Below are positions 1,235 through 52,575 of a stretch of DNA of 64,000 nucleotides, piece after piece. A program made the position numbers and the translations under genes. Below the pieces are notes generated by a model. The model saw only the letters and a list, made by a program, of their open reading frames with translations. It did no database searches and was not told the origin of the DNA. Origin of the DNA: a virus (lineage: Duplodnaviria > Caudoviricetes); IMG/VR virus record IMGVR_UViG_3300009431_000002, positions 128,001 to 192,000 of that record; one strand, 5' to 3'. Within the stretch, counting starts at the first letter, position 1, and every line of letters starts with the position of its first letter.

Positions 1235-1609
1235 GTGGACCCGTTGTTAGCTCAGAGGCTCGTGTGGGTGGACGACCTCGGCGCGGCGCTGTCCGACGCC
1301 ACCGACAAGGTGGAGCACGTCTTCATCACCGTGGACCCCGTCCGCAAGATGGCGGTCAGAATCGACATGAGGCTATCGGAACCCCTGGAGCCGGGGTCCG
1401 AGAAGCATTTCGCCAACGTGATTCGCGGCTGGGCCGCGGTCAACGACGTGGACGTGCTGAAGGTGACGACACAGTGTCGTCGCGTGTTGGTGGACGCCCA
1501 CGTCAAGTACCTTGGAGGTGGAGAGTGCCGTCACAGTATATGGGATCTGCGCCCAGCCCCGCGAAGCCGCCACCGCTTCGTGCGCATCGGGGACCGCGGA
1601 AGAAAATGA
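1235..1609 (+). CDS. Hypothetical protein (about 124 aa; start re-called within ORF 1034..1609)
   Basis: GTG at 1235; protein-like composition only downstream of it. Its stop overlaps the RNase HII ATG (ATGA). Confidence 0.6.
   Translation: MDPLLAQRLVWVDDLGAALSDATDKVEHVFITVDPVRKMAVRIDMRLSEPLEPGSEKHFANVIRGWAAVNDVDVLKVTTQCRRVLVDAHVKYLGGGECRHSIWDLRPAPRSRHRFVRIGDRGRK
1467..1479. repeat. Dispersed palindrome CGACACWGTGTCG, copy 1
   Basis: TGACGACACAGTGTCGTCG at 1464-1482, inside a CDS. Confidence 0.9.
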
Positions 1610-2229
1610 GAGTCGCCGGCCTGGACGAGGCGGGTGCCGGAGCCCTGGCCGGTCCCGTCATCGCCGCGGCCGCGCTCTACGACGACATGACGTGCCCGTT
1701 CGAGCCGCTCATCGACGGCGAGGGGTACAAGGACAGCAAGCAGCTCACGAAGCTGGCGCGCGAGAAGCTGGTCCCCCAGCTCATCGCTGGCGCCGTGTCC
1801 ATCGGGCTCGGATGGGCGGACCCCGAAGAGGTCGACCGCATGGGCATGCGGGAGGCTCACCTGCTCTGCCTGCGGCGCGCCGTGGGGGATCTGCAGACGC
1901 CGCCGGAGATGCTCTACGTCGACGGCCGCGCCTACGAGCTCAGTGGCCTGCCCTTCCCGCAGCTCGCCGAGAACCGAGCCGATACCATCTACTGGCAGGT
2001 GGCGGCCGCATCGGTCATCGCCAAGACCTACCGCGACGGCATCATGTACGAGCAGCACGCGAAGTACGATGGCTACGGGTTCAACACCAACGTGGGGTAC
2101 GGGTCCAACCAGCACCTCGAGGCTCTGGGCAGGCTCGGCCCGACGCCCATCCACCGCAAGCTGTTCATCCGCAAGCCCATGGCCCGGGCTGGGCAGCAGG
2201 TCCCCCTGTCCCGGAGGTACACCCTGTGA
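1606..2229 (+). CDS. rnhB: Ribonuclease HII
   Basis: MRVAGLDEAGAGALAGPV, DSKQL, YVDG, VAAASVIAKTYRD, GYG...H.EAL..LGPTPIHR are all RNase HII signature motifs. Confidence 0.92.
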   Translation: MRVAGLDEAGAGALAGPVIAAAALYDDMTCPFEPLIDGEGYKDSKQLTKLAREKLVPQLIAGAVSIGLGWADPEEVDRMGMREAHLLCLRRAVGDLQTPPEMLYVDGRAYELSGLPFPQLAENRADTIYWQVAAASVIAKTYRDGIMYEQHAKYDGYGFNTNVGYGSNQHLEALGRLGPTPIHRKLFIRKPMARAGQQVPLSRRYTL

Positions 2230-3059
2230 GCGGCGAGGTCACCACGGCCCGCATCGCCCGGCTACTGCACGCCCGCCACGAGCCGCCGGAATGGGCGTGC
2301 TTCCAGGAGTTCACGACGATGACGGGCGGCGGGTTCCGCCGGTCTGGCGGCTACAGGACCGTGCGGTTCGTCGACTTCCTCGCCGTGAACCTCTGGCCCT
2401 CGAAGGGGATCTCCAAGTCGCCCAGGGTCGTCGCCTACGAGATCAAGGTCAGCCGCTCCGACTTCTTCCGGGAGATCCAGGACCCCAGCAAGCGGGCCCA
2501 GGCCATGGCGATGTCCAGCGAGTTCGTGTTCGCCGTCCCCAGTGGGCTGGTGAAGAAGGACGAGGTCCCCGAGGGCTGCGGGCTGCTCTACGCCACGACG
2601 GCCGGCCTGCGGCAGATGAAGGCGCCGCGGCAGAAGAAGCCGGACGACTGGGACTGGAACCTCATCTGCTCGCTGGCACGCCGCGTCGCCGACGAGCGTC
2701 CGAAGGACTCGCTGGCCGCCTGGAGGGTGGCGGGCCGCGAGCTGACCTACGAGGAGCTCGTGCAGCTGGCCATCAGCTCGTACAAGCGTGACGTCGGCGA
2801 GACCGCGGAGGCCATCGCCAACGGCGCCACCAAGAAGCTGATCGCCTCCAAGCCCTACCAGGACCTGCTCGACATCGCCGCGGCCGTGAAGGAGAAGTGT
2901 GGCTGGCGCGTGCAGACGGGCGACCAGTTCCGCCGGTGGTTCGATGAGCAGCTGCAGGGCGCGGTAGACCGCGACACGATCAGTGGAATCCGGCAAGCGC
3001 GGAGCACGCTGGATCGAGTGCTGGAGCGAGTCGCGCCAGCTCCGAAGCAAACCCGCTGA
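2226..3059 (+). CDS. MmcB-like PD-(D/E)XK nuclease-family protein
   Basis: R.VDFLAVNLWPS...VVAYEIKVSRSDFFREIQDPSKR...SEFVFAVP.GLVKKDEVPEGCGL. The GTG overlaps the rnhB stop (GTGA). Confidence 0.65.
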   Translation: MSGEVTTARIARLLHARHEPPEWACFQEFTTMTGGGFRRSGGYRTVRFVDFLAVNLWPSKGISKSPRVVAYEIKVSRSDFFREIQDPSKRAQAMAMSSEFVFAVPSGLVKKDEVPEGCGLLYATTAGLRQMKAPRQKKPDDWDWNLICSLARRVADERPKDSLAAWRVAGRELTYEELVQLAISSYKRDVGETAEAIANGATKKLIASKPYQDLLDIAAAVKEKCGWRVQTGDQFRRWFDEQLQGAVDRDTISGIRQARSTLDRVLERVAPAPKQTR

Positions 3060-7073: not shown

Positions 7074-7074
7074 G

Positions 7075-8052: not shown

Positions 8053-8055
8053 CGT

Positions 8056-9284: not shown

Positions 9285-10194
9285 CGTCCTCTCCCAAGGT
9301 GTCAGCGACATCCGCGGTGTCGCTGTACGTTCCTCCCGCCTCCGGGTCGGCCAGCTGATGCAGGGACACCGGCGGCTGTTTGTCATTCTGCACGCGCATC
9401 CGCTCGAAGTCCTTGAGCAGACGGCGCAGTTCATCCTCGCTCGTGGCCACGCGCTTGTCGATGGCCAATGCCGTGTTGGCCAGCCCGGTGAGCATCGTGA
9501 TCTTGTCCCGGCTCAACGACACTGTGTCGTCGACCGTCACGAAGTTGATGTACAGGCGACGCCGCATGTCCTGCAGCATCTCCTGCCCCTCGAGGCCGGC
9601 CCGCAGGCCCATGCGGTGGAGCGTGGCCTCTCGGCCAGACCGCAGCGCGACCTCGTGGTCCTCCTGCACCATCGGCGGCAGGTCCTGGGACAGGATGGTC
9701 TCGGACCACTCCTCCAGGCTCATGGCCCGGACGTTCCAGTAGTAGTGCGCGAACGACTGGACGCCGTCTGTGGTGATCCGTAGACCCTCTGCCCGACCCA
9801 CCTCGCGTGCGATGACGTGGAAGGGCACCTGCCCCAGCAGTCCGACCTCTACTCGCCGGCGGACCCGGAAGTCCAGGAGGATCGTGTTGGCCTCCTCGAC
9901 GGCGCGCGTCGGGTGGTGCAGCGAGAAGATGCGGTGCCGTCGCAGGTACCGTGCGGTCCGGATGTTCCTGCGGTCCCGGGGCAGGAAGGGGTTCGGGATG
10001 TCCTTGAGCAGCTGGGCACGGAGGCGGCTGACGTACTGCTCCTCGGCCTCGGGCAGCCGATACATCTCCAGGTGCGTCTTCACGAACTCGTAGCTGCACT
10101 TCTCCGGATGCCCCTGCGTCAGCAGGAAGAGGATGAACCGTTCGCTCGGATGAGCACGCTGCTCCCGAGCGGGTGGGAGCAGATCCATCGTCAT
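9250..10194 (-). CDS. Hypothetical protein (314 aa)
   Basis: GC3-rich, coupled to the upstream gene (ATGA overlap), acidic C-terminus. Confidence 0.7.
   Translation of the reverse strand: MTMDLLPPAREQRAHPSERFILFLLTQGHPEKCSYEFVKTHLEMYRLPEAEEQYVSRLRAQLLKDIPNPFLPRDRRNIRTARYLRRHRIFSLHHPTRAVEEANTILLDFRVRRRVEVGLLGQVPFHVIAREVGRAEGLRITTDGVQSFAHYYWNVRAMSLEEWSETILSQDLPPMVQEDHEVALRSGREATLHRMGLRAGLEGQEMLQDMRRRLYINFVTVDDTVSLSRDKITMLTGLANTALAIDKRVATSEDELRRLLKDFERMRVQNDKQPPVSLHQLADPEAGGTYSDTADVADTLGEDDDGSEDIDEDA
9517..9529. repeat. Dispersed palindrome, copy 2
   Basis: ACGACACTGTGTCGTCG at 9516-9532, inside a CDS (encodes DDTVS). Confidence 0.9.
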
Positions 10195-12335: not shown

Positions 12336-12339
12336 TGGT

Positions 12340-13431: not shown

Positions 13432-13438
13432 GTCCTAC

Positions 13439-14664: not shown

Positions 14665-17600
14665 CTAGTACCCGACGCGGAACTCCGTGGTGCCGGGTGT
14701 TCCTTTCTCAGGCTGCCCGAACTCGGAGCCATAGGCTAGCGCCGGGATCGGATGCAACCCGTGGATGTTGCTGGACCAGCCCCTCAAGGCACCGTCGACG
14801 ATGGTGTCCTTCAGCTTCTGGTACTGGAGCCGCGCCATCCAGTCCTCCTGCATGTCCAGCGGCGTCTGCGTGACCCCGCGCAGGATGGGCGTGAACTTGA
14901 CGGGCTTCTTGCGCTTCTTGTTGTGGTACCCGACATTCGACGTGGACACCAGGTCTCCTGGGAGGAGGTCGGTGTCGCCGGCGTCATCCACTACGCCGAG
15001 GTCGGTGATGGCGCGGACCGCGGTCTCCACGTTGCGCCGGAGCACTGGGCCCGCGTCCGAGTACGCCTTGTGGACCTCGTCCGCGAGGTAGCCGCGCACC
15101 GTGTTGATGTTGGTCAGCGGCAGCATCTCGTGCGGATTGATGGGCCCGCCGGAGAGCCGGTCCCCCTTGCGGACCTTCACGCCCTTGCGCAGCTTGATCT
15201 TCTCGTTGACCAGGTGCTCGGGGACGTAGTGCCTCTTCCCCTTGACCCAGATGTTGAGGCCGCCGACCTCGGCGTCCTTCTCCACCCGCTCTACGGTGCC
15301 CGTGGTCGTCGCCAGCGTCGCCGAGTCCGCCAGCACCTTGGGCATGCGCAGCAGGTCCTGGACCCTGGTGAACTTGTCGGTGGACCGGCCGCTCTTCGAG
15401 GCAGCGACCCCGCCTTCGTGGAACGCGCGCATCGACAACTGCGTGGCGGGCTCGCCCAGTGCCTGCGACGCGATGACCCCGATGTTGGTCCCCGGGTCGG
15501 GCAGCTGGCCGTCCGGCAGGTTGCCGTAGTCCCGTGCGTACAGTCCCTTCGGGGCCACCGACTTCAGCGGGCTGCGGATCGACACGCGCCGGACGCCGCT
15601 GTTCTTCATCCTCGTCTGGACCCGGTCGGTGACCTCGGTGTTCCTCGGCAGGACGTCGCCGCCCCGGAGCTTCACGGGCCGCGCGAGGTAGCGACCGATG
15701 ACCTCGCGGTCCTCGGGGTCCGCGCTGATGCCGTCGTCGGCGTCGTCCGGCGCGTCCCCATCGACCACGACGAGGTTCATGGCAGAGTTCACGACGTCCT
15801 TGGTCAGCGCGCCGGGCTTGGCGGTCTCCTTCGTCTTCTGGATCATGCCCTTGCGCGCACCGTGCATGGCCGTGAAGTAGCTGGCGGAGTCCAGGCCCTC
15901 GGCGTAGCTCTTGGTGATCGGCACCGGCACGATGCGGTCGGCCGCGTCCTTCACCAACATGGGGGCGATGAGGATCTGCCGGACCTGGTCCCAGTTGCCG
16001 CGAGCACCGGCGTTGACCATCTCCAGGGCGTGGTTGCCCTGCCGCTCCAACTTCGGACGGATGGCCCGGCTCAGGTCCTCGGTGGCCTTGGAGTAGAGGT
16101 CGACGAGGCGCTGGTCCTTCTCCTCCTGGGTCAGCGACTTCATCTTCTGGATGCGCTTGGCCGCCTTGTGGACCCCAGCCAGGGCGCGGTCGCGCACAGC
16201 CTGCTGCGCCTGGAAGTCGTCGAGGGTGAACGACGCGCCAGACTCGTAGGCGTAGTCGTTGCCCATGTCCTTGAGGTCGTTGACGACGTCGCCGAAGTCG
16301 GCCGAGTGCTCCTTGGCCATCCGGGTGAGGAGGTCCTTGGTCGGGCCCTTGGACATCCGGAAGTCCTTGGAGTGGAGCAGCTGCGCGTCCCCTCGCATCC
16401 CCTCCGGCAGCACGCGGTCGAGGAGGATGCGACCGAGGGTCGTCTCCCTGCCCTTCACCGAGACCACGTCGGTCATGCCGAGGCCGAGCTTGCGGGCCTT
16501 GGCCGCCACCTGCGCCGGCGAGTCGAAGCGGTGCGACGTCTTCTTCCCCCACTCTGTCAGCCGGTACAGCCCGAGCTGGGCCTCGTGGCCCGGGGAGTAC
16601 ATCACCCGGCCGGTGGTGGTGTTGAACAGGTTGTTGGACGGGAAGAGCTTGCGCGCCTCCTCCACCGCCTCCTTGGCGAGCGGAACGTAGGCGGACATCT
16701 GGTCGCCGTCGAAGTCGGCGTTGTACCCCGAGGTCACCAGGGGGTGGATGCGGATGGCCTTGCCGCCGACGAGCTTGGGCTTGAACGCCATGACCCCGAA
16801 CTTGTGGAGCACCGGGTCACGCTTCAGCAGCACCGGCCGCTCCTCCATCACGCGCTCAAGCGCGTGCCGGGCGACCTTGGAGTTGGTCCGGACCAGGTGC
16901 TGTGCCTCGGCGGGGACGTAGCCCTGCTCCCGCACCAGCTTTCGCACGACGAAGGGCTTGTACGTCTCCTTCGCCAGCTTGTAGGGGATGCCCACCTCGT
17001 CCAGTCCCATGTCGGGCTCGGGGATGATGGTGGACCGCATCGACAGGTCCTGCCGGCGGGAGACGAGGTTCTTCTGGAAGAACGAGTCCTTGGGCTGGGG
17101 CACGCCCTTCATCGTCTCCATCACGCCGCGGTGCTTGCGGCCGTTGATGGTGGAGCCGGTCATCATCAGGGCGCGGAGCCCGTCGTAGAGCTCGGCGGTC
17201 AGCTTGCTCTTCGTCTTCTCCCCGAGTCCGGGGTCGTAGTCCCGCAGCTGGATGTTGGTGATGCCGAGGCTCTTGTACAGGCCGTTGATGTCCGAGTCGT
17301 TGAGCTTGCCCGACTCCATCACCGAGACCGGCCGCATCACCGGCGGCATGACGGGCACGACCGAGGTGAAGTACGCCTGGTCGGGGGTCAGGTCGTTGGC
17401 GACCAGCGCCTCGAGGAACCGGATCTGCTTGCGCAGCTTCGCCATCGTCGACACGGCCTTGGTGGTCTCGGCCTGGCGACGGAGCGTCTCCAGCTGCTGC
17501 CGTGGGTCGATGGCCGCCAGCCGTGCGCGGATGGCTTCGGGCCCGGTCTTCCCGTCGAGCGTCTTCTCGCCGGCGATGACGGCCTGGTAGTCCTTGTTCT

Positions 17601-20600
17601 TCAGCCCCGTGAAGGTGAGGATGGCCTTCTCGAACACCGGGTTCGGCATGGGCTCGGCCAGCCGGATGTGGGACCAGCGCTTGCCGTCCACACCGCCCGT
17701 GGCGTAGGGGTCGAACAGCCCGCCGCGCTCCGGCTTGAGGTCCTTGCCCCGGAACATCAGGCCCGGGTCCTTCAGTTCGCCGCTGGACATCCGCAGGATC
17801 TGCTCGTCGGTGAGGGGCGCGAGGTTCAGGGTCGAGCCCTGCTTCTTGACGTCGACGCCCAGCACGTTGAGGTAGCCGTTGAACTTGTCGAAGGCGAACG
17901 AGGTGGACGGCGGTGGGAGCTGCTCCCCAGTCTGCAGGGCCATCCACAGCTCGGGGTTCTTCTGGCTCTTGTAGGTGGCCATCTCCCGGATGTTGGCCTT
18001 CGCTCCATGAGCCAACATGGCGTACATGCCCAACGCGTCCATGGCCTGGGCGCCGTGGGCACCACCGCCCTTCGGAACCTCGTTGACGCTGTACGCGTAC
18101 CCGGCCCCGCCCGCGCGGGCGTGGGACTTCTTGTCGATCTGGTGCTTGAGCTTGAGGATGTACTGGTCGCCCGTGAGGATCGGCCCCAGGCTCTGCCCGG
18201 ACTTGGGGTCCACCAGCTCCTCGGTGTCGGACAGGCCCTCCTTCGCCAGCTCCGCCTTCATCTCCTTGGCGTAGTTGCGGTTGGCCCCGCCGAAGTTGTT
18301 GGTGACGTACCGCTTGCCCCGCTTCCGGGCGATCTTCCCGGCCATCGTCTCGAGGACCTGGCCGAGGTTGATGCGGCCGGGGATGCCAGCCGGGTTGAGC
18401 AGGACCTCGACCGGGGCGCCCTCTTCGCCAGAGGCGCGCGGCATCTCGTGGTCAGGCAGCACCGCCGTGACGATGCCCTTGTTGCCGTGGCGTCCGACCA
18501 GCTTGTCCCCGACGCGGGCAGGCTCCTCGGTGGCGACGTGGACGCTGACGTCCTTGCCCCGCTTGACGACGCGGACCACCCGGCCCTTCGTGTCCTTGTC
18601 CCAGACGATGGGCTTGGGGTCCATGTCCCGCACGAGGCTCTTGTGCAGCCGCGCCCGCATGCGACGCTCGCTGGTCTGCTCCGGCTTCTTCAGCGCGGCG
18701 ACGAGGATGTCCCCCTCGTTGACCTCCTGCCCCACCTGGATGACGCCGTCGTCGTCGAGCTTGTCGTAGACCTCGCGCTGCACGCGGTCGGGTGGCGCGT
18801 ACGCGCGGAACTTCTTCTTGTCCAGGACCGTGTTCTTGGTCAGCCGCATGCTCTTGCGGTGCATGTGCTGGGACTTGAGCTTCTCGGCCGCGGACTCGGA
18901 GACGACGATGCCGTCCTCGAAGTTGTACCCACGGTACGGGATGTAGGCCACCCGGAGGTTCTTGCCCAGCGCGAGCTTGCCTTCGCGCGTGAAGTTGGTG
19001 TCGGCCACCGTCTGGCCGCGCTTGACCTTGTCCCCCTTCTTCACGAGGGGCTCGGAGTGCAGGACGCTGGACGCCTCGTTGAGCGGGAAGTGGTCGTAGA
19101 GCTGGACCTCCTCCAGCTTCCCGGCCTTGCTCCGGATCTTGATGGCGCCGGGCCTCACCGACACCACGGTGCCTTCCACCGGGGACTCGTGGGAGTTGAA
19201 CTGGCCCAGCACGTCCTCGAAGGTGGACCTCACCTCGGTCTTGGACTGCACCAGCGGCTCGTCGCGGTCCACCAGGGGCACGGCCTGCTCCTGCTGCCGG
19301 GACGCCGTCATGGCCCTGTTGCCCTGGTTGTTCTGCAGGAAGGGCACGAGGTTGGTGGCCATGCTGAACAGGCCCTTGGCCGACGGGAGGATGTAGTCCA
19401 CCTCGCTGGCCGGCACCTGCATCACCTCGCCGCCCGGGCCGCTGACCGTCACCTCCTTACCGATGGGGACGAGCCGGTTCTTCACCTTCTTGTACTGGTC
19501 TGGGAAGGCGACGGTGGAGCGGTGCGCCTTGTGCGGATCGATCTTCTCCCGGCGGCCCGTCTTCGTGTTGTAGGCCTGGATGTAGAGGGTCTTGCCCTTC
19601 CGCGACACCCCCAGCGGGAGCTGGAGGGTGATGCCGGTGCGGTCACCCTCCGGGGTGTGGATGGGGTCGAGGAAGCCGAGGTGCGTCGGGTCGATGAGCT
19701 GGTCGGCGTCGGTCAGGGTGTGGGTGCTCTTGACCCCGCCCTCGCCCATGATGGTGGTCTTGGACTGGCCGGAGATGAACTCCAGCGGGTTGACCTGGTC
19801 GGGCATCTGCGACAGCTGGGTCTGGGTGAAGAAGGTCTTGATGGGCTTGTCGAACAGCCCGGGGGTCACGACCTCCCTGACGTCGGCCTTGCGGTCGATG
19901 TTGTTCTCCATCTTCCGCTGCAGATCCCAACGGCCGCGGGTCAGCCGCTCGGCCACGAAGTCGTCGACCGACAACGCGTCCTTGTAGAACAGGTGCTCAC
20001 GCGCGTCCGGGGTGTCCTCGCCCCTCGAGATCCGCGCGAGCTTGTGGGCCGAGGCCAGGAGCGACGGGCCGCTCACCTTGTCGTAGGCCTTGCCCAGGGT
20101 GATCTTCGTGCTGTCGGGGCGCAGCACGGTCGTGCCGAACTCATCTCGGAGGTGGCGCTCGGCGTCCTCGATGCTGGGTGCCTGCTTGCCCGTCGACGCC
20201 TTGTAGAAGGCGCGCATGGCGACGTCGTGCTTCTCCTTCTTCCCCTGGTTGAGGATCCCGCGGCCCAGCTCGCGCTCGATGGTGTCGTCGTCGACCCCCA
20301 GCACCTTGAGCATCGGGTAGAGCGGGATGTGGGAGTTGCCGTACCGGACCAGGAACCGCCGGTCCTCCGGGTGGAACCGGAGCCGGAAGTTCTTGCCTTT
20401 CGCCATGTTCCACTGGGACTCCAGCTCACCCTTGGCGCTGACGCGGTGGTACACCCCAGCCTTCAACCGGAACTGGTTGTCGACCTGGTACTCCTTGCCG
20501 TCGACGATGTAGGAGTGCCGCTTGGTCACGCGGGGCAGGTTGCCCACGCGCATGGACTTGCGGCTGATGACCTTGCCCGTCTCCTTGTTGACCAGGGAGA

Positions 20601-20811
20601 CGTCGGCCATAACAGGGTCAGCCCAAGTCCTGCCCTTGAGCTTCGCGTCCTGCTGGGACCGGATGTCGTCGATGCCCTTCTTGTCGTCGACCCAGACCCG
20701 GTGGAGCTCCAGCCGGTTCTCTCGCCCCTCGAAGGGGAACATCGACGAGATGGCGTCGCTGACACGGTCTTTGAGGGCACCGTAGGAACCCTCTGGGTTC
20801 AGTGTCGCCAT
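14665..20811 (-). CDS. rpoBC: DNA-directed RNA polymerase, single-polypeptide beta-beta' fusion (phage-encoded)
   Basis: Beta motifs: QLSQMPDQVNPL, THLGFLDPIHTPEG, NLVPFLQNNQGNRAM, GYNFEDGIVVSES, GDKLVGRHGNKG, LLNPAGIPGRINLGQ, YILKLKH. Beta' motifs: PVMPPVMRP, RRQDLSMRSTI, KRDPVLH, YNADFDGDQM (16702-16722), HGARKG bridge helix, SQALGEPATQLSMRAFH trigger loop. Confidence 0.95.
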   Translation of the reverse strand: MATLNPEGSYGALKDRVSDAISSMFPFEGRENRLELHRVWVDDKKGIDDIRSQQDAKLKGRTWADPVMADVSLVNKETGKVISRKSMRVGNLPRVTKRHSYIVDGKEYQVDNQFRLKAGVYHRVSAKGELESQWNMAKGKNFRLRFHPEDRRFLVRYGNSHIPLYPMLKVLGVDDDTIERELGRGILNQGKKEKHDVAMRAFYKASTGKQAPSIEDAERHLRDEFGTTVLRPDSTKITLGKAYDKVSGPSLLASAHKLARISRGEDTPDAREHLFYKDALSVDDFVAERLTRGRWDLQRKMENNIDRKADVREVVTPGLFDKPIKTFFTQTQLSQMPDQVNPLEFISGQSKTTIMGEGGVKSTHTLTDADQLIDPTHLGFLDPIHTPEGDRTGITLQLPLGVSRKGKTLYIQAYNTKTGRREKIDPHKAHRSTVAFPDQYKKVKNRLVPIGKEVTVSGPGGEVMQVPASEVDYILPSAKGLFSMATNLVPFLQNNQGNRAMTASRQQEQAVPLVDRDEPLVQSKTEVRSTFEDVLGQFNSHESPVEGTVVSVRPGAIKIRSKAGKLEEVQLYDHFPLNEASSVLHSEPLVKKGDKVKRGQTVADTNFTREGKLALGKNLRVAYIPYRGYNFEDGIVVSESAAEKLKSQHMHRKSMRLTKNTVLDKKKFRAYAPPDRVQREVYDKLDDDGVIQVGQEVNEGDILVAALKKPEQTSERRMRARLHKSLVRDMDPKPIVWDKDTKGRVVRVVKRGKDVSVHVATEEPARVGDKLVGRHGNKGIVTAVLPDHEMPRASGEEGAPVEVLLNPAGIPGRINLGQVLETMAGKIARKRGKRYVTNNFGGANRNYAKEMKAELAKEGLSDTEELVDPKSGQSLGPILTGDQYILKLKHQIDKKSHARAGGAGYAYSVNEVPKGGGAHGAQAMDALGMYAMLAHGAKANIREMATYKSQKNPELWMALQTGEQLPPPSTSFAFDKFNGYLNVLGVDVKKQGSTLNLAPLTDEQILRMSSGELKDPGLMFRGKDLKPERGGLFDPYATGGVDGKRWSHIRLAEPMPNPVFEKAILTFTGLKNKDYQAVIAGEKTLDGKTGPEAIRARLAAIDPRQQLETLRRQAETTKAVSTMAKLRKQIRFLEALVANDLTPDQAYFTSVVPVMPPVMRPVSVMESGKLNDSDINGLYKSLGITNIQLRDYDPGLGEKTKSKLTAELYDGLRALMMTGSTINGRKHRGVMETMKGVPQPKDSFFQKNLVSRRQDLSMRSTIIPEPDMGLDEVGIPYKLAKETYKPFVVRKLVREQGYVPAEAQHLVRTNSKVARHALERVMEERPVLLKRDPVLHKFGVMAFKPKLVGGKAIRIHPLVTSGYNADFDGDQMSAYVPLAKEAVEEARKLFPSNNLFNTTTGRVMYSPGHEAQLGLYRLTEWGKKTSHRFDSPAQVAAKARKLGLGMTDVVSVKGRETTLGRILLDRVLPEGMRGDAQLLHSKDFRMSKGPTKDLLTRMAKEHSADFGDVVNDLKDMGNDYAYESGASFTLDDFQAQQAVRDRALAGVHKAAKRIQKMKSLTQEEKDQRLVDLYSKATEDLSRAIRPKLERQGNHALEMVNAGARGNWDQVRQILIAPMLVKDAADRIVPVPITKSYAEGLDSASYFTAMHGARKGMIQKTKETAKPGALTKDVVNSAMNLVVVDGDAPDDADDGISADPEDREVIGRYLARPVKLRGGDVLPRNTEVTDRVQTRMKNSGVRRVSIRSPLKSVAPKGLYARDYGNLPDGQLPDPGTNIGVIASQALGEPATQLSMRAFHEGGVAASKSGRSTDKFTRVQDLLRMPKVLADSATLATTTGTVERVEKDAEVGGLNIWVKGKRHYVPEHLVNEKIKLRKGVKVRKGDRLSGGPINPHEMLPLTNINTVRGYLADEVHKAYSDAGPVLRRNVETAVRAITDLGVVDDAGDTDLLPGDLVSTSNVGYHNKKRKKPVKFTPILRGVTQTPLDMQEDWMARLQYQKLKDTIVDGALRGWSSNIHGLHPIPALAYGSEFGQPEKGTPGTTEFRVGY

Positions 20812-22187: not shown

Positions 22188-22200
22188 CGACACAGTGTCG
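22188..22200. repeat. Dispersed palindrome, copy 3
   Basis: TGACGACACAGTGTCGTCG at 22185-22203, identical over 19 bp to copy 1; overlaps a stop codon and the convergent intergenic gap. Confidence 0.9.
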
Positions 22201-22208
22201 TCGACGCC

Positions 22209-22232
22209 GAGTGGGGGCCGCCCCACTCTTTT
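22209..22232 (+). terminator. Intrinsic terminator
   Basis: GAGTGGGG-CCGC-CCCCACTC followed by TTTT, between convergent genes. Confidence 0.75.
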
Positions 22233-22241
22233 AGATCGGGA

Positions 22242-27258: not shown

Positions 27259-27645
27259 ATGCCTATCGTGACCCGAGCAGCCGCGAGAGCGATTCGTTAC
27301 TCAGACCTTGCGCCGTCACCGACGACGTACCCCCGCAACCGCCCGCCGTGTTTCGGCAAGCAGTACGACCCAGCCGACGCCGAGTGCCGGCACCAGTGCT
27401 CCCACAAGAGCGCCTGTGCCCCGATCTTCCGCCAGACCCACGGGGTCCGCGTCCCCGCAACCACCACCAGCTCCGCCGTGGCGGACCGAGAGCAGACCGA
27501 GCTCCCGGAGTACACGGAGGTCGCTGCCCCCGACGAGAGCTTCTGGGCGAAGCTCGCCTTCAACTCCGCCCTGCAGGCTGTGGAGTCCGTGGTCCACGAG
27601 ATGCACTACGCCATCCGCTCCGTCCCGAGGAAGGAGTACTTCTGA
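27259..27645 (+). CDS. Hypothetical Cys4 protein
   Basis: PCFGKQYDPADAECRHQCSHKSAC; strong RBS. Confidence 0.7.
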   Translation: MPIVTRAAARAIRYSDLAPSPTTYPRNRPPCFGKQYDPADAECRHQCSHKSACAPIFRQTHGVRVPATTTSSAVADREQTELPEYTEVAAPDESFWAKLAFNSALQAVESVVHEMHYAIRSVPRKEYF

Positions 27646-28043
27646 TGGCCATGCTCAGCGTGGGCCAGACGTTCAAGCGATACCGCGAGCGCGCCAGGTT
27701 CAGCAGCTGTGCCGCCGTGGCTGGCCCCATGGGCATCTCGGGTGAGTACATCCGGCAGATCGAGAAGAAGGGGAAGATCCCCAGCGACAAGGTCGTGAAC
27801 AGCTTCATCGAGGTCTGCCGGATGCCGACCGAGGCTGCCGACGCCCTGCGGAAGGCGGTCGTCGCCGCCCGCCTCAAGCGCACACACGGCCGCAACCTCA
27901 CCCATTTCAAGGGTGCGGACCAGGTGGCCTCCGGCGTCTGCGACGACCTCCGGGAACTGCTCGACAAGATGGGGCTCATCGAAGAGGATGTGGACGCCAT
28001 CCTCGAGACCGCTCGTCAGGGGATCGTATCGAGGCTCCGGTGA
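27645..28043 (+). CDS. XRE/Cro-family HTH transcriptional regulator
   Basis: VGQTFKRYRERARFSSCAAVAGPMGISGEYIRQIEKKGKIPS; TGATG coupling to the upstream gene. Confidence 0.72.
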   Translation: MAMLSVGQTFKRYRERARFSSCAAVAGPMGISGEYIRQIEKKGKIPSDKVVNSFIEVCRMPTEAADALRKAVVAARLKRTHGRNLTHFKGADQVASGVCDDLRELLDKMGLIEEDVDAILETARQGIVSRLR

Positions 28044-37498: not shown

Positions 37499-38031
37499 CA
37501 GGCCATCCCAAGCTACGGCCTGGGTTCCTGCGGTTGATGGAGCGCTTCCTCATGCACCCGCGCGACCCGTCGAAGCCATCCCCAGCCGACATCATCCACG
37601 CGAACCCCGAGGAGCTGGCGCGGGAGCTGATCCGCCTCCAGCACACCGACGCGATGTACGCGACACTGTGTCGTTTGCAGCGTGACCACCCGCAGATCAC
37701 GGACCAGCACATCCTGTGTGCCGCGCTGCTCTCGCGGGAGGAGATCCTCGAGCTGCTGCACGCTGAGGTCCGCGACCGGCCACCCGAGCCCATCGTGGTG
37801 GGGGACGTCCCCTTCTTCCCGATCAGCTCCGAGCGCGTCCCGAAAACGGAGGAGGCACTGCTGGAGGGCATGGCCGACCTCAAGCCGGCGCTCAACAAGA
37901 TCATCGCCACCGCCAGCGGCTCGAGGCCAATCCCCGATGGCGAGGTCACCTGGGAGCGTCTCGGCGAAGGACTCCGCGACTGGTTCAGTAGGCACGCCAC
38001 GCCCGTGGAGCGAGACGATGACGAAGAGTGA
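37495..38031 (+). CDS. Hypothetical protein
   Basis: GTGA coupling; 3' part of ORF 36994..38031. Confidence 0.6.
   Translation: MTGHPKLRPGFLRLMERFLMHPRDPSKPSPADIIHANPEELARELIRLQHTDAMYATLCRLQRDHPQITDQHILCAALLSREEILELLHAEVRDRPPEPIVVGDVPFFPISSERVPKTEEALLEGMADLKPALNKIIATASGSRPIPDGEVTWERLGEGLRDWFSRHATPVERDDDEE
37661..37673. repeat. Dispersed palindrome, copy 4
   Basis: GCGACACTGTGTCGT at 37660-37674, inside a CDS (encodes ATLCR). Confidence 0.9.
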
Positions 38032-38299
38032 GCTGCTGGACCTCGTGCACCGCCGCGTTCGCCGGCGCGTGCGCCTCAACCCCCTGCTGACTCGCGCCGT
38101 CGTCGAGGCGTTCCTGGACGTCGTCGCCGAGACCATCAACTCCGGCGAGCCCGTGAAGCTCCGTGGCTTCGGCCGGTTCGACATCATCCTCGCGCCGAAG
38201 AAGGCGGTCTACGACTTCAAGAAGAAGGAGATGACCAGCATCCCGCCGAGGCACAAGGTCGTGTTCAAGCCCTCGTCGACGAGGTTCACCCTTGACTGA
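38018..38299 (+). CDS. HU/IHF-family DNA-binding protein
   Basis: MTKSELL...AVVEAFLDVVAETINSGEPVKLRGFGRF...IPPRHKVVFKPS. Confidence 0.88.
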   Translation: MTKSELLDLVHRRVRRRVRLNPLLTRAVVEAFLDVVAETINSGEPVKLRGFGRFDIILAPKKAVYDFKKKEMTSIPPRHKVVFKPSSTRFTLD

Positions 38300-40091: not shown

Positions 40092-40092
40092 C

Positions 40093-43941: not shown

Positions 43942-43955
43942 ACCCCTCGGACTAC

Positions 43956-44129: not shown

Positions 44130-44186
44130 CGACACCGGCGGGGCCCCCGGACGGGGGCTCCGCCATCGTCAGCCGCCCCGCTTTTT
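44126..44186. terminator. Long hairpin / probable terminator at a convergent junction
   Basis: GGCGGGGCCCCC-GGAC-GGGGGCTCCGCC stem (44137-44164), extendable by CTGACGA/TCGTCAG, with TTTTT at 44182-44186. Confidence 0.6.
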
Positions 44187-44462: not shown

Positions 44463-44463
44463 C

Positions 44464-45477: not shown

Positions 45478-45480
45478 GGC

Positions 45481-45972
45481 CTACTCCTTGCTGGCGGCGA
45501 TGTCGCGTCCGATCTTCTGCAGCTCCGTGATGAGGATGGCGCCCGGACCTCCGAGGGCAAGGATGAGGGCGTTGTACCACTCCACCCCCGCCGCGAAGTC
45601 CGATAGGAGGTAGACGGCGAAGCCCACCACCACGCAGATGATCCGGAGCACGAACCCCTTCTCGAACAGCTTGCGGAACCAGGTCCTCGCCGCCCACAGC
45701 AGCAGCTTCAGGATGGCCGCGATGAGCCCAGAGATGGCGAGGAACATGGCGGTCTTGTCCCCCTTGGCCGCCTTGACCGCGGCGACACCGTCGATGACGC
45801 CTGTGAGCGCCTCGGCGGCGTCTGCCGGGTCGGCCTCGGCGTCCGGGTCCATGAGCTCGTAGTCGGCCTCCTCGGCCGCGGGTGCGGCACTGTCGTCGTC
45901 CTGGGCGCGCACCTCGGCGCACCAAGCGATGCTCGCAACGAGCGCGAGCGTGATGAGAACGAAGTCTCGCAT
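45481..45972 (-). CDS. Membrane protein (signal-like N-terminus plus about 3 TM helices), holin-like candidate
   Basis: MRDFVLITLALVASIAWCAEVRAQ, acidic linker, three hydrophobic stretches. Confidence 0.6.
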   Translation of the reverse strand: MRDFVLITLALVASIAWCAEVRAQDDDSAAPAAEEADYELMDPDAEADPADAAEALTGVIDGVAAVKAAKGDKTAMFLAISGLIAAILKLLLWAARTWFRKLFEKGFVLRIICVVVGFAVYLLSDFAAGVEWYNALILALGGPGAILITELQKIGRDIAASKE

Positions 45973-45985
45973 GACGTCTCCCTTC

Positions 45986-51900: not shown

Positions 51901-51916
51901 GGAAGCGAAGGCTCAT
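45986..51916 (-). CDS. Large tail/tail-fibre-associated structural protein (1976 aa)
   Basis: Acidic, Gly/Pro-rich beta-type composition within the baseplate cluster; coupled to the upstream gene; strong GC3 bias. Confidence 0.65.
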   Translation of the reverse strand: MSLRFLRRPFLMGNTPIDVLSQPYIRGQIRRDDTSREFPGLTLPARLAVLIDGDPDVDAPVEVVLSALDITTIVADIDAALGVTGTAKEEEGFVAIYSSTIGAGASVTIVPVSAGVDASFYLGFPRWPNPISRVESGDVAWTPPRGRVDNNPLGTGFIATGDQMAADAQNRGLMLLSANTESLYQTVTRELARGMEVDVDETDPNWAARIVTDGAGNIVQLDLSDLSPWPLLEERIYVGNGYVDRLSTLTEIGQFFAVMRNDLVEIIEGGEAVRVAGVHRGQRVAPTPDFVDETSPPTNPLIDVADWTTHDGSNVLGVDCIKTAAVPIDEIQNRCVVRVAGATFITDGVVDGDKAVVSGSTINDPFNHDGTYRVERVIDEEHLELGAWTPGDRAELNPDTSGAFGSVEVSSGGLFADGIWLTFEPAIPAGTLFKVVCGAAVTLANMPVDHFLRMNIRSFDEVDDLVQEVIRKMKGPLVDSTDDFTSAPFAHSIAGGSTYAGEPDVTQELQWRRTTLQGAYDGQGRGAGGGFMVEVDDRPPRWQVNSTRTPKPGTVLRTGTPGVPAQFLAGNIFFATGEAFTLDDVGRYILVRGALPAGLDPNATFKIIDYLDSESVIVSEETSAPGQIPVGSVEEYAIIEGRFEDWNAAMVWHVIEQVNPTARWGGVYFEDMNPYGDYDPGHALNALREAPQHSGDASILRYFDITFDGGDDWIRVPFDPTDSGNVRFGYDDDTGEYRPGGYIAITHSQENAGWYHVVQGEMGAGAGRLRLANLDGSKPNFAADATGEAKAHLYVATELSNETFDLTPIAASAGIRRIGKFFYEDGYDLDNLQGVVGIGWRGVGSGLWANLNDPSFKSIDRIPDATRGPAMRFTSYSPAYGLFNRHYGDPDNAGASYRGYWAMYMQALTRSLDQTKTGPMMRGGAGMLVQLGWDPGLFVLSKETGNTNFVSMDYPWLESAAAIVAAGENPQTQLQSGAHEFTGAMYQPDARMWSADHNDIHRGGIYSEQAGAFMHSLHPMMLPEDRYYEAAPVPLGAITRGQARLGWPGQIQPWGLTGDIQITGLLPPDPTKSRAIRTSGTVQFVVSDATIRLWEPFDRFIGCQVEISGSADDDGIYVIINAVPVDQAAMPDYTLELELLGTNTIAAPLTWADGDPAAPSLAVLGARWHYGYVDVAGFTLYGTETKVPYIVGKDFGSGGPGGGSGGGSSAGGPQPAPIELLRDRAPHEYPVIGARMNDTTTLLRGGDLINLTSPEPAWPAYGKFYHAPHSLAGMIDQPYGHGDSDIGEMITDPTSDWLAEEPFLNSGWCGAYGRMIAPAPPNFGPFLDDALSSRADNAMNFWNSEWVWTRNLIKNQTPSGTFYAGTGPGVGAALGDPWAMYFEYEHDPGVALYVPRNMYRALEKGQRLLRNHHYNVVVRFEARFETILGNIDQTEVEVIARLVSDNGTVHQMASVMVPVNAAAASKYEVHLNLGERLREANMMTFEEENDWRVEIGIGKITADAPLLIAQRGRLHLWQISVDQDHQVLVDQGSRVVEGTVSAQGFRALSPIRDYMVMGPGDAQLYLPPGYAAEPSIKATSDYVGLDLPIDPPAHFMLNCNYEKEDGEQHDHRAWCRVADFIDFRRGIDSASIRFLMKWTDPYVHYLSRTGGDPLGDEDTDGYAPPSRVGFIVPLRVPHGARIIGADLQMSFQPQFYDDGEDHKAKLTIWGDRRPFVGPGAEDDLVGCRIRIVRLHLFPDADEAVRRIGNEFSNDPSGGAFENGVHASVRCNFEDPWDAGLRHQDVGFYEVLFGSYMVLPEEPTYLPVNSAIRTNFVGHYGGALWNLPIGAEMFARRRYFFLTGQGGDDPDPEVVPFRHSKPEVWVADTRQFAYYAIIDAWGRGDVDTPHGDVLGKNGDAPDPAVDGPWLGSGMYSPYWMSLDRRKPEIPPTAMASWTKISQADEDKETYLRILRRSAAMKFRGLRMTYEWDRLRPG

Positions 51917-52575
51917 CGGAACATGACCTCCCAGACGGCCTCGAGGCCGTAGCCTTCAACCTTCACGAGCGGGTCGAAGGACTTGTAGGCCAACGGCGAC
52001 CTCGACGCGGACGTGGCGAAGTCCGTGGGGCACGGGATCGCGTTGTCGGCGTTGGGGTCGCCGTCGGTGAACAGCCCGGCCTCGCTGATGACAGCGTTGG
52101 CACCGAGGCTGATCTCGTTGGAGGCGTACTCGCGGATGAACTGGACCGAGGTGCGCGGCGTGCCGTCGGCGTCTGCGGTGTAGGTCGGGGGGACCTGGAA
52201 CTGCGCCAGGAACTCCCCGACACGGAACTCGATGGGGCTCACCAAGCCTGACACCTCGGCGACCTCGGACTGGTTGCCGTTGCCCAAGCCGATGTAGAGG
52301 ATGCGGTCGTCCCGCATCGGCGTCCGCGACGGGTTCTGCAGCGCCAGCGCCACCAGCTCCGCCAGGTACTCCCGGCCCGTGAGCGTCCAGATGTTGTTCC
52401 CGTCACGCTCCTCGACGACACGGCCGTCGGGGTCCTTCAACCGCAGCGTGAGCCGCCCCTCGATGCTGGGCCCATCCTTGATCGGCGACACAGTGTCGTC
52501 GCCACCACCAGGTCCGCCGACCACGCGGAGCCGCAGGCGGTCCCGCACACGCACGATGTCCTTCAGGAACTTCAT
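51913..52575 (-). CDS. Tail-collar/baseplate protein
   Basis: NNIWTLTGREYLAEL...ILYIGLGNG...ISEAGLFT fits the tail-collar/fibre N-terminal pattern. Confidence 0.65.
   Translation of the reverse strand: MKFLKDIVRVRDRLRLRVVGGPGGGDDTVSPIKDGPSIEGRLTLRLKDPDGRVVEERDGNNIWTLTGREYLAELVALALQNPSRTPMRDDRILYIGLGNGNQSEVAEVSGLVSPIEFRVGEFLAQFQVPPTYTADADGTPRTSVQFIREYASNEISLGANAVISEAGLFTDGDPNADNAIPCPTDFATSASRSPLAYKSFDPLVKVEGYGLEAVWEVMFR
52486..52498. repeat. Dispersed palindrome, copy 5
   Basis: GCGACACAGTGTCGTCG at 52485-52501, inside a CDS (encodes DDTVS). Confidence 0.9.

What the first reader, a model, noticed from the sequence alone, without database searches (positions are those of the whole stretch)
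1464..52501. Five dispersed copies of a 13-15 bp palindrome (RCGACACWGTGTCGY), a candidate parS/matS-like site system
Seen: CGACACWGTGTCG at 1467, 9517, 22188, 37661 and 52486, with gaps of about 8.1, 12.7, 15.5 and 14.8 kb. Copies 1 and 3 are identical over 19 bp. Four copies lie inside CDSs on both strands and coincide with codons rare in this GC3-rich genome (ACA/TGT/CGT in TTQCRR and ATLCR; ACA or ACT in DDTVS), which suggests selection on the DNA rather than the protein. A rough iid estimate at about 68% GC gives about 0.002 expected copies per 64 kb. Known: promoter-independent dispersed palindromes of this size are typical of ParB-parS and MatP-matS sites. Inference: a phage genome-organisation or segregation site, with the ParB-like protein at 1-674 (about 0.8 kb from copy 1) as first candidate binder and the XRE HTH protein (27645) or HU as alternatives.
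Basis: partly seen in the sequence, partly recalled or inferred. Interest (0 to 1): 0.85.

Follow-up and report, generated by a model that had tools for sequence, protein, structure and literature searches.

The report
Evenly spaced phage palindromes, likely ParB sites
A 202-kb phage carries 15 identical, unusually evenly spaced copies of a 13-bp palindrome, many forced into genes, and they are most likely docking sites for the phage's own partner-less ParB-type DNA clamp; no ParB-type site array has been described for a phage with no sign of lysogeny.

Summary
The whole 201,921-bp virus genome holds 15 exact copies and only one 1-mismatch copy. Other first-stage readers of this scan noted the same palindrome in other windows of this genome.

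- Spacing: gaps run from 5.7 to 23.9 kb and are far more even than chance (P about 4e-4).
- Selection on the DNA: ten copies lie in genes and use rare codons. Synonymous shuffling keeps 0.15 in-gene copies on average.
- Relatives: sister phages lack this sequence but carry sister palindromes, CGACAGWCTGTCG or CGGACAG(A/G)CTGTCCG. Two relatives that are 86% identical keep 6 of 6 shared sites unchanged.
- Absence elsewhere: more distant relatives have no such palindrome and no ParB gene beside terL. No bacterial genome searched holds a contig with more than one copy.
- Candidate binder: the gene beside the terminase gene is a real ParB-family protein, with an N-domain carrying GxRRxxA, a ParB HTH and a C-terminal domain modelled as a dimer. 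I found no ParA, integrase, SMC or MatP.

Best reading (confidence 0.5): KorB/Noc-like loading sites for an orphan ParB that covers the whole genome, not a classical partition centromere. Binding is inferred, not shown.

The parts
1467..1479 (.). Palindrome copy CGACACAGTGTCG (G000 129467), inside a 115-aa + strand gene, read as T-T-Q-C-R
   Evidence: The orthologous codons in G001/G002 read EITPL and lack the motif.
9517..9529 (.). Palindrome copy CGACACTGTGTCG (G000 137517), inside a 314-aa - strand gene, read as D-D-T-V-S with the rare ACA codon
   Evidence: The G002 orthologue has DKVIP and no motif at these codons.
22188..22200 (.). Palindrome copy CGACACAGTGTCG (G000 150188), intergenic. 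It abuts the stop codon of an 89-aa gene and is followed by a separate GC hairpin with a T run. Relatives carry their own palindrome variant at this same position.
   Evidence: Positional counterparts are G002 22567 and phage C composite 27813.
37661..37673 (.). Palindrome copy CGACACTGTGTCG (G000 165661), inside a 164-aa + strand gene, read as A-T-L-C-R, about 350 bp upstream of the HU gene
52486..52498 (.). Palindrome copy CGACACAGTGTCG (G000 180486), inside a 220-aa - strand gene, read as D-D-T-V-S with the rare ACT codon
   Evidence: The gene has a 47%-identical orthologue in G004.
1..674 (+). 3' two-thirds of the orphan ParB-family gene (full gene G000 127658-128674, 338 aa, divergent from terL). 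This is the candidate binder.
   Evidence: PHROG ParB-like families, best E 4e-16. Spo0J 1vz0 matches at E 1e-4 with the GxRR box and HTH aligned. The family profile hits Spo0J/Noc/KorB at E 3e-44 to 3e-20. The AF2 model has pLDDT 84 and its top 32 PDB matches are all ParB/Noc/KorB/PadC. The C-terminal domain homodimer model scores 0.73 against a best control of 0.01.
27645..28043 (+). XRE-type HTH protein (132 aa), an alternative candidate binder
   Evidence: Pfam HTH_31, E 6e-8. The recognition helix S-x-E-Y-I-R-x-I-E is nearly invariant in three phages with different palindromes.
38018..38299 (+). HU-like protein (93 aa), an unlikely sequence-specific binder
   Evidence: Pfam Bac_DNA_binding, E 2e-16.

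Best explanation
The palindromes are high-affinity binding and loading sites for a dimer of the phage's own orphan ParB-family protein. That gene sits beside terL (G000 127658-128674). The core is 13 bp, with a weaker symmetric preference out to about 19 bp: yGA-CGACACWGTGTCG-TCr.

Shown:
- The sites are exact, evenly spaced and selected at the DNA level.
- The palindrome variant differs between lineages while all copies within a genome agree.
- The neighbouring gene is a ParB with an N-domain carrying GxRRxxA, a ParB HTH, a Lys-rich linker and a C-terminal domain that is modelled as a dimer.

Inferred:
- ParB recognises the palindrome through its two HTH domains and, like KorB, Noc and chromosomal ParB, closes into a nucleotide-gated clamp that slides away from the site.
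- One site every 6-24 kb would let clamps reach the whole 202-kb genome.

No ParA, integrase or SMC was found, so the likely purpose is not plasmid partition. It is more likely genome-wide marking or organisation of phage DNA. That could mean long-range control of transcription as in KorB, or gathering replicated phage DNA for packaging. Which of these applies is open.
For: Site statistics:
- 15 exact copies and one 1-mismatch copy.
- 0.03 copies expected per window.
- Synonymous shuffling keeps 0.15 of the 10 in-gene copies.
- Spacing is even, P = 4e-4, with the same tendency in relatives.

Selection on the DNA and not the protein:
- Rare ACA, ACT, TGT and CGT codons are used at the sites.
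- Orthologous codons in relatives encode other residues: NDTVS against RGSVA, DDTVS against DKVIP.
- G002 builds its site inside the conserved TerL stretch FSRDRLSDP using AGA. That codon makes up 0.011 of Arg codons in G000 genes.

All copies in a genome follow one variant, which points to a sequence-specific factor acting in trans:
- G000 has CGACAC-W-GTGTCG.
- G001, G002 and G003 have CGACAG-W-CTGTCG, at 11 distinct sites.
- Phage C has CGGACAG-(A/G)-CTGTCCG, three copies.
- The three variants occupy the same convergent gap.
- G002 and G003 are 86% identical in nucleotides, yet 6 of 6 shared sites are 78/78 identical.

The central base on the sense strand is A in 6 in-gene copies and T in 4. 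That fits a symmetric duplex site better than an RNA loop.

The ParB gene:
- ParB-family membership is supported.
- GxRRxxA is present in all four close homologues.
- The C-terminal domain homodimer model scores 0.73 against a best control of 0.01. In that tool's calibration the mark was reached by 21 of 30 proteins solved as pairs of one chain and by 0 of 23 solved as single chains. The runs agree in at least 86% of contacts and the partner pLDDT is at least 73.
- The terL/ParB/RNase HII gene order is kept in every lineage that has the palindromes.
- G004 and G005 have no such palindrome and no ParB at that position.
- ParB is the second most diverged of 60 orthologue pairs, at 29% against a median of 50%.
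- Its HTH recognition helix differs among the three lineages, whereas the XRE helix does not.
Against: - No binding data exist, and protein-DNA modelling was not available here.
- The covariation rests on only three palindrome variants.
- Pfam's ParB_N and HTH_ParB models do not pass threshold on g159 itself. Membership comes from PHROGs, the PDB matches, the family profile and the fold.
- The box III residues ENxxR read VNADR in G000 and LDVDR in G002. The Glu at this position is needed for CTP hydrolysis in canonical ParBs (my knowledge, not verified here). Clamp cycling may therefore differ or be absent.
- G004 has a distant ParB-like ORF elsewhere (E 1e-12) but no palindrome array.
- About 200 of the 224 predicted genes have no assigned function, so another binder could exist.
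- The Corndog-type phages have a similar repeat array, but their ParB-like gp90 shows only ParB_N and no ParB HTH.
Confidence: 0.5

Rival explanations
1. The sites are operators for a different dimeric phage DNA-binding protein, acting as a global regulator or silencer. Candidates are the XRE HTH protein at window 27645-28043, the HTH_17 protein at G000 124123-124818, or an unannotated protein. ParB would be unrelated.
For: Dyad symmetry and exactness fit any dimeric HTH protein. XRE orthologues are present in all three lineages that have palindromes and were not detected in G004. In G002 one site lies inside the XRE orthologue. Most of the 224 genes are unannotated.
Against: The XRE recognition helix is nearly invariant across phages whose palindromes differ. 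The sites are not associated with the promoter-like motif: median distance 7.3 kb, 2 of 15 within 200 bp, P = 0.07. Ten of 15 sites are inside genes. Even spacing is not expected of promoter operators.
Confidence: 0.2
2. The sites are distributed packaging-recognition ('pac-like') marks. A terminase-associated DNA-binding protein, ParB acting as or with the small terminase, reads them so that only phage DNA is packaged and packaging can start at many places.
For: The ParB gene is adjacent to and divergent from terL, and this order is conserved. Among 185,579 prokaryotic species genomes the 17-bp form matched 19 contigs, one site each, so no contig held more than one copy. The motif would therefore discriminate phage DNA from host DNA. 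IMG/VR reports no terminal repeats for this record, and CheckV rates it 100% complete.
Against: No phage with many dispersed pac sites is known to me. Discrimination alone would not demand even spacing. An HTH_17 protein upstream of terL is a more ordinary small-terminase candidate. No read-end data could be obtained: one run was found and it holds 8% of the words.
Confidence: 0.12
3. The sites act as nucleic-acid hairpins, either RNA processing or pause signals or extruded DNA cruciforms, and not as duplex protein-binding sites.
For: Each copy with its flanks folds into a 5-10-bp stem with a 3-nt loop, at -6 to -19.5 kcal/mol. A palindrome works in transcripts of either strand. The variants keep the GACA/TGTC stem and change the loop-closing bases.
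Against: All 12 specified positions are invariant within a genome, which a structure alone does not need. There is no T run after the sites, and two intergenic copies are followed by their own separate terminator hairpins. The loop base is A or T without regard to the sense strand, 6 against 4. A stem inside 10 genes would cost translation.
Confidence: 0.08
4. The sites are targets of a sequence-specific nuclease, nickase, methyltransferase or recombinase, that is, restriction-like, homing or recombination hot spots.
For: All-or-none exactness is typical of enzyme recognition sites. Each phage lineage has its own variant.
Against: I know of no restriction or modification site with 12 specified bases. 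A genome would avoid its own nuclease sites and not conserve them in genes. No rearrangement breakpoints at the sites were seen between relatives.
Confidence: 0.05

Closest known systems
KorB and its OB operators on IncP plasmids (RK2/R751)
   Same: KorB is a ParB-family CTP clamp. Its 13-bp palindromic core has an odd central base (TTTAGCGGCTAAA in the oligo given in PMC11790492). Twelve sites are spread over the ~60-kb replicon and are conserved in relatives (PMC13768133). Some lie far from promoters, and the protein acts at a distance by sliding (PMC11790492). The family profile seeded by g159 hits KorB structures at E 3e-20, and the fold search also finds them.
   Different: KorB has a ParA partner (IncC) and clamp-locking partners (KorA, TrbA), and it serves plasmid partition. 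Here no ParA was found, no KorA-like partner has been identified, the replicon is a phage with no sign of lysogeny, most sites are inside genes, only 2-3 positions are conserved between lineages, and the site sequence is unrelated.
Noc and its NBS sites (Firmicutes)
   Same: Noc is an orphan ParB paralogue without ParA. Its palindromic sites are dispersed over a whole replicon. It gave the second-best structural and profile matches, at E 1e-39.
   Different: Noc tethers DNA to the membrane through an N-terminal amphipathic helix to block division (my knowledge). No such helix is evident in g159, the replicon is a phage, and the spacing is about 13 kb, not the tens of kb seen for NBS.
17-bp dyad repeats of Cluster O mycobacteriophages (Corndog), TGTTCGGNNNCCGAACA
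   Same: The half-sites are invariant. There are more than 30 copies throughout a phage genome, about a third of them in coding regions. They are not linked to promoters, are absent from the host, and are conserved among relatives. The authors inferred a dimeric DNA-binding protein acting in something other than transcription initiation (PMC4351075). No function was found in later papers of the library.
   Different: The sequence and spacer differ, the density is higher (about 1 per 2 kb) and skewed to one end, so the spacing is not even. The phage lineage is unrelated. Corndog's ParB-like gp90 shows ParB_N only, with no ParB HTH.
ParABS centromeres, including the dispersed centromere sites of phage-plasmid N15
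   Same: A ParB-family HTH protein binds palindromic sites. N15 has several centromere repeats scattered over the phage genome (my knowledge, not checked here).
   Different: Those systems need a ParA/SopA ATPase and a plasmid prophage state. Here no ParA, no ParA-binding motif and no integrase were found. The sites are not the TGTTNCACGTGNAACA type.
MatP and matS (Enterobacteria)
   Same: matS is a 13-bp palindrome (GTGACRNYGTCAC, my knowledge) dispersed over a large domain, and it organises DNA without regulating genes.
   Different: MatP is a ribbon-helix-helix protein, and no MatP homologue was found. matS is degenerate, whereas these sites are exact.

Membership tests
ParB/Spo0J-KorB-Noc superfamily (the protein g159) | ParB N-terminal (Srx-like) domain with the GxxRxxA nucleotide-binding box | tested here: met
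   GLRRWLA at residue 60 aligns to GERRYRA of Spo0J 1vz0. The fold search's top 32 hits are all ParB-family. Pfam ParB_N itself is below threshold on g159.
ParB/Spo0J-KorB-Noc superfamily (the protein g159) | ParB-type HTH DNA-binding domain following the N-domain | tested here: met
   The HTH aligns to the Spo0J HTH. Homologues found with the g159 profile carry Pfam HTH_ParB. The AF2 model has pLDDT above 90 over residues 1-190 and matches the ParB, Noc and KorB N-domain plus DNA-binding domain.
ParB/Spo0J-KorB-Noc superfamily (the protein g159) | C-terminal dimerisation domain | tested here: met
   A helical C-terminal domain spans residues 268-330. The homodimer model scores 0.73 against a best control of 0.01. 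This is a model only.
ParB/Spo0J-KorB-Noc superfamily (the protein g159) | CTP binding and hydrolysis, and clamp closure | not testable with these tools
   The GxRR box is present, but box III reads VNADR and lacks the Glu of ENxxR.
ParABS partition system (parS centromere) | A ParA/Soj-type ATPase partner and a ParA-binding motif in ParB | tested here: not met
   PF13614 and PF01656 give no match in the genome. No (L/F/I)G(K/R)G(L/F/I) motif is present (motif as defined in PMC12704722). Caveat: the genome search's first look is coarse and also missed ParB_N.
ParABS partition system (parS centromere) | Sites of the parS consensus, clustered near the par locus or origin | tested here: not met
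   The sequence is unrelated to parS, and the 15 sites are spread over the whole genome with even spacing.
KorB-OB type global network | Many identical short palindromic sites spread over the replicon and kept in relatives | tested here: met
   There are 15 exact sites. G002 and G003 keep 6 of 6 shared sites. Two to three positions are shared between lineages.
KorB-OB type global network | Binding of the ParB-family protein to the sites, with a clamp-locking co-repressor (KorA/TrbA) | not testable with these tools
   No binding assay was possible, and no KorA-like partner has been identified.
MatP-matS | A MatP (RHH) protein encoded or available | tested here: not met
   PF06303 gives no match.
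Cluster A stoperators / phiC31-type intergenic repressor operators | Asymmetric, transcription-oriented sites (stoperators), or intergenic promoter-linked operators of a lysogeny repressor | tested here: not met
   The sites are perfect palindromes, 10 of 15 lie in genes, they show no association with the promoter-like motif, and no integrase was found.
Intrinsic terminators | A GC-rich hairpin followed by a T run at operon ends | tested here: not met
   No T run follows any copy. Copies at 39099 and 150188 are followed by separate hairpins, the latter with a T run.

The most novel reading that the evidence does not exclude
A jumbo phage with no sign of lysogeny, which encodes its own fused beta-beta' RNA polymerase, uses an orphan ParB clamp and an evenly spaced array of private loading sites to coat or condense its entire genome. 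The coat would be a protein-based 'self' mark or compartment. It could guide the phage polymerase or the packaging motor, or shield the DNA from host factors. The site and the protein would co-evolve as a lock and key between sister phages.
Probability: 0.25. Interest if true: 0.85.

Novelty: new variant of a known kind. Interest (0 to 1): 0.68.

Why it matters
Orphan ParB-fold proteins are common on phages and other mobile elements, and their roles are largely unknown (PMC12704722). Invariant dyad repeats scattered through actinophage genomes have been unexplained since 2015 (PMC4351075).

This genome offers a clean, testable link between the two. It has one ParB with an HTH and 15 exact sites whose spacing matches the distance over which such clamps are thought to spread. 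Three natural site variants occur in sister phages, which allows swap experiments. If confirmed, it would extend ParB/CTP clamp biology from partition and plasmid gene silencing to organisation of a whole genome during lytic phage infection.

It would also give a rule for reading similar repeat arrays in other phages. The even spacing, and the way sites are written into conserved proteins through rare codons, are unusually direct evidence of selection for coverage of the genome, not for any particular locus.

Tried and rejected
- Chance: rejected.
- Mobile element or copied repeat: rejected. The flanks are unrelated beyond about 3 bp on each side.
- Host element: rejected. The 17-bp form matched 19 contigs among 185,579 prokaryotic species genomes, one site each, from unrelated taxa.
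- Shared with other viruses: the 15-bp form hits 35 stretches on 33 IMG/VR contigs, none related to this phage, and a few unrelated contigs carry two copies.
- Close relatives in the GenBank phage collection: none by DNA, and only remote protein hits.
- ParB homologue search by words: found only the query itself.
- Metagenome scan with the ParB alignment: one 4-kb contig without the motif.
- Contigs of the more distant ParB homologues P0004-P0006: too short, or no DNA held.
- A second 'ParB-like gene' near G000 72-74 kb, noted by another first-stage reader: not reproduced by Pfam or by the ParB profile.
- Terminator reading: rejected.
- Promoter-operator reading: no association with the promoter-like motif.
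- Read-end test for cutting or packaging at the sites: not possible. Only one run was found, holding 8% of the words and kept as contigs.
- Literature search for the motif itself: only unrelated primer matches.
- Orthology of the TerL sites of G002 and phage C: they lie at different codons, so the positions are not orthologous.

Full report
**1. Observation**

The pattern CGACACWGTGTCG occurs exactly five times in the window, at 1467, 9517, 22188, 37661 and 52486. Dinucleotide-preserving shuffles give 0.03 expected copies, and none of 100 shuffles reached five. Allowing up to two mismatches adds no further site in the window. Copies 1 and 3 share 19 bp.

The window is bases 128001-192000 of a single 201,921-bp virus record with 67% G+C. 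IMG/VR classes the record as linear, with no end repeats found. CheckV rates it 100% complete. Genome-wide there are 15 exact copies:

- 15183, 39099, 52738, 58973, 79646
- 87639, 103984, 115662, 121362, 129467
- 137517, 150188, 165661, 180486, 197623

There is a single 1-mismatch copy, at 10870. The 9-mer ACACWGTGT occurs nowhere outside the 15 copies. A weaker symmetric preference extends the site to about 19 bp: G at -2 in 12 of 15, A at -1 in 12 of 15, T at +1 in 11 of 15, and C at +2 in 12 of 15. Other first-stage readers of this scan noted the same palindrome in other windows of this genome.

**2. More than chance, and selected as DNA**

I made a codon-usage gene call of my own. It gave 224 genes covering 90% of the genome. 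Ten copies lie in genes on both strands and five are intergenic.

- Eight in-gene copies are read x-D-T-V-S (GAC ACW GTG TCG) and two are read T/A-T-Q/L-C-R.
- The codons used are rare among synonymous codons: ACA 0.044, ACT 0.030, TGT 0.08, CGT 0.08.
- Shuffling synonymous codons within genes keeps a mean of 0.15 in-gene copies, with a maximum of 2 in 300 shuffles, against 10 observed.
- At the orthologous codons, relatives encode other residues: NDTVS against RGSVA, DDTVS against DKVIP, TTQCR against EITPL.
- Conversely, relative G002 writes its own variant into the conserved TerL stretch FSRDRLSDP as CGC GAC AGA CTG TCG. G000 encodes FSRDRLADP there without a site. AGA makes up 0.011 of Arg codons in G000 genes.

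The DNA word is therefore the selected object, and proteins bend to fit it.

**3. Even spacing**

Gaps between neighbouring copies run from 5.7 to 23.9 kb, with a CV of 0.40. Against 200,000 random placements, P = 4e-4 for the minimum gap and P = 2e-4 for the CV. The result holds whether the genome is treated as circular or linear. The relatives show the same tendency, with P between 0.002 and 0.03. G001 and G002 overlap, so they are not independent.

Nearly every block of co-oriented genes has at least one site, and long blocks have two or three. Sites are modestly enriched in intergenic DNA, 5 of 15 against 10% of the genome (P = 0.013). They are not associated with the promoter-like motif GGNAYAAGG that other readers noted: the median distance is 7.3 kb, and 2 of 15 lie within 200 bp (P = 0.07).

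**4. Relatives**

TerL finds five IMG/VR contigs. None carries the G000 word.

| Lineage | TerL identity to G000 | Palindrome | Copies |
|---|---|---|---|
| G001, G002, G003 | 71-72% | CGACAG-W-CTGTCG | 11 distinct sites over about 100 kb |
| Phage C | not measured | CGGACAG-(A/G)-CTGTCCG | 3 in about 50 kb |
| G004, G005 | 48-49% | none | about 185 kb each, 99-100% complete |

In the closer fragments the sister palindrome is the top over-represented 12-14-mer. Phage C is a third lineage, reached through the ParB homologue P0003. It is a composite of JGI and ENA contigs held as L052, L058, L061, L072 and L073, and its palindrome is the only repeated 7+1+7 palindrome there.

G002 and G003 are 86% identical in nucleotides. 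All six sites in their shared region are 78/78 identical, while the 60-bp flanks are 80% identical. At 14% divergence the chance of no change in 78 positions is about 8e-6 (my arithmetic).

Between lineages only two or three positions are shared. The first is the convergent gap after the 89-aa gene: G000 150188, G002 22567 and phage C 27813. The second is the divergent gap at G000 87639 and G001 50051. The in-gene sites sit in similar neighbourhoods but at different codons or genes. So the word changes in concert across a genome, and sites turn over locally while coverage is kept.

The word is not a host element. Among 185,579 prokaryotic species genomes the 17-bp form matched 19 contigs, one site each, from unrelated taxa. 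Hits in IMG/VR are unrelated contigs.

**5. What it is not**

It is not a terminator. No copy is followed by a T run. The copies at 39099 and 150188 are each followed by a separate hairpin, the latter with a T run.

It is not simply a structure. All 12 specified bases are invariant within a genome. The central base on the sense strand is A in six in-gene copies and T in four, as expected for a symmetric duplex site.

It is not a promoter operator set, and it is not a copied mobile repeat, because the flanks differ.

**6. Candidate binder**

The gene divergent from terL (G000 127658-128674; window 1-674 holds its 3' part) encodes a 338-aa protein.

- It hits PHROG ParB-like families at E 4e-16.
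- It matches Spo0J 1vz0 at E 1e-4 over residues 9-187, with GLRRWLA aligned to GERRYRA and the HTH aligned.
- Pfam on the protein itself gives only a weak HTH_38 match.
- A profile search of 1.8 billion proteins finds 2,380 relatives. Those I scanned carry ParB_N, HTH_ParB and weak KorB domains.
- The family profile hits Spo0J (3e-44), Noc (1e-39), ParB and KorB (3e-20) structures.
- An AlphaFold2 model has mean pLDDT 84, with values above 90 for residues 1-190, a disordered Lys-rich linker at 207-261 and a helical C-terminal domain. Its top 32 PDB matches are all ParB, Noc, KorB or PadC.
- The C-terminal domain is modelled as a symmetric homodimer with score 0.73 against a best control of 0.01. 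In that tool's calibration the mark was reached by 21 of 30 proteins solved as pairs and by 0 of 23 solved as single chains. The runs agree in at least 86% of contacts, and the partner pLDDT is at least 73. This is a model and does not show binding.

The protein has no ParA-binding motif. The genome gave no match to two ParA families, tyrosine integrase, SMC or MatP. One caveat applies: that search's first look is coarse and also missed ParB_N.

**7. Link between ParB and the sites (inference)**

- The terL/ParB/RNase HII gene order is kept in all three lineages that have palindromes.
- G004 and G005 have no such palindrome and no ParB at that place. G004 has only a distant ParB-like ORF elsewhere, at E 1e-12.
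- ParB is the second most diverged of 60 orthologue pairs between G000 and G001/G002, at 29% against a median of 50%. Its neighbour TerL is 72%.
- Its HTH recognition helix differs among the three lineages: KDVRTVQRALE, VSTRHVQRLMK and KSTRHVRRWLQ.
- The XRE protein at window 27645-28043 (HTH_31) keeps S-x-E-Y-I-R-x-I-E nearly unchanged in the same three phages.
- HU (window 38018-38299) is not expected to read a specific sequence.

With three variants this is suggestive and not proof.

**8. Mechanism proposed**

A ParB dimer recognises the palindrome. By analogy with KorB, Noc and chromosomal ParB, it then closes into a nucleotide-gated clamp that slides off the site. KorB reaches promoters up to 1.5 kb away and acts from twelve sites spread over RK2 (PMC11790492, PMC13768133). 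Sites every 6-24 kb would give clamps access to all 202 kb.

The phage has no ParA or integrase. It encodes its own fused beta-beta' RNA polymerase and a full replication module. I therefore read the array as marking or organising the whole genome during lytic growth, not as a partition system.

Whether the output is long-range transcription control, condensation for packaging (the gene sits beside terL) or protection is open. Box III lacks the Glu of ENxxR, reading VNADR in G000 and LDVDR in G002. That Glu is needed for CTP hydrolysis in canonical ParBs (my knowledge, not verified here), so the nucleotide cycle may differ.

**9. Comparison with known systems**

The closest mechanistic analogue is KorB-OB: a 13-bp palindrome with an odd centre, about a dozen dispersed sites, and a ParB-family clamp. 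The closest analogue in protein matches is Noc-NBS, an orphan ParB with dispersed sites.

The closest phage precedent is the 17-bp dyad repeat of Cluster O mycobacteriophages. It has more than 30 invariant copies, a third of them in genes. It is not promoter-linked, and its function is unknown (PMC4351075). No later explanation turned up in the library. Corndog's ParB-like gp90 has ParB_N only.

Orphan ParB-fold proteins are reported as widespread on phages and mobile elements, with mostly unknown roles (PMC12704722).

The system here differs from all of these in five ways: the even spacing, the majority of sites inside genes, the change of the word in concert between sister phages, the absence of ParA, and a jumbo-phage setting with no sign of lysogeny. 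It fails the membership tests for ParABS and MatP-matS. It works like KorB or Noc but is not shown to be a member of either system.

**10. Verdict**

The feature is real, strongly non-random and under purifying selection as DNA. It is almost certainly a binding site for a phage-encoded dimeric factor, by my estimate about 0.85. The terL-adjacent orphan ParB is the best candidate, at about 0.5. I class it as a new variant of a known kind. It is worth an experiment because the binding test is simple and three natural site variants are available for swaps.

Noticed in passing
window 14665-20811 (-): A 2048-aa ORF is a fused beta-beta' multisubunit-type RNA polymerase (Pfam Rpb2_6 at 7e-64, plus Rpb1_2, Rpb1_5 and others). 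It lies among minus-strand structural-type genes and is conserved in G002 (66% identity) and in phage C (2042 aa).
   Followed up: partly
L029:5025-8036 (relative G002): TerL of the relative is 1003 aa, against 589 aa in G000. It carries a large insert that looks like an intein. The relative's palindrome copy lies in the conserved C-terminal part.
   Followed up: no
G000 10870 (outside the window): The only 1-mismatch copy, CGAAACTGTGTCG, lies in an intergenic region 20 nt upstream of a promoter-like GGNAYAAGG motif. It may be a decayed or weak site.
   Followed up: no
G000 98805 (outside the window): A spacer variant, GACAC-GTA-GTGTC, has a 3-nt centre instead of 1 nt. It sits in the 16-kb gap between sites 87639 and 103984.
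   Followed up: no
G000 87746-88696 and G004 79357-81563: An AAA_5 (MoxR/dynein-like) ATPase gene sits beside the positionally conserved site at 87639. In the distant relative G004, which has no palindrome array, a divergent ParB-like ORF lies directly upstream of the orthologue of this ATPase.
   Followed up: partly
window 22201-22240: Just after palindrome copy 3 there is a classic bidirectional-looking terminator, GAGTGGGGCC/GCCCCACTC followed by TTTT, in the convergent gap. Phage C has a different hairpin at the same place.
   Followed up: partly
G000 124123-124818 (outside the window): A 231-aa protein with an N-terminal HTH_17 domain lies just upstream of and convergent with terL, and is conserved in all relatives including G004. 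It is a plausible small terminase.
   Followed up: no
window 2226-3059 and 1606-2229: Downstream of ParB lie an RNase HII gene and a gene matching a PHROG 'DNA repair protein' family. The terL/ParB/RNase HII order is conserved across three lineages.
   Followed up: partly
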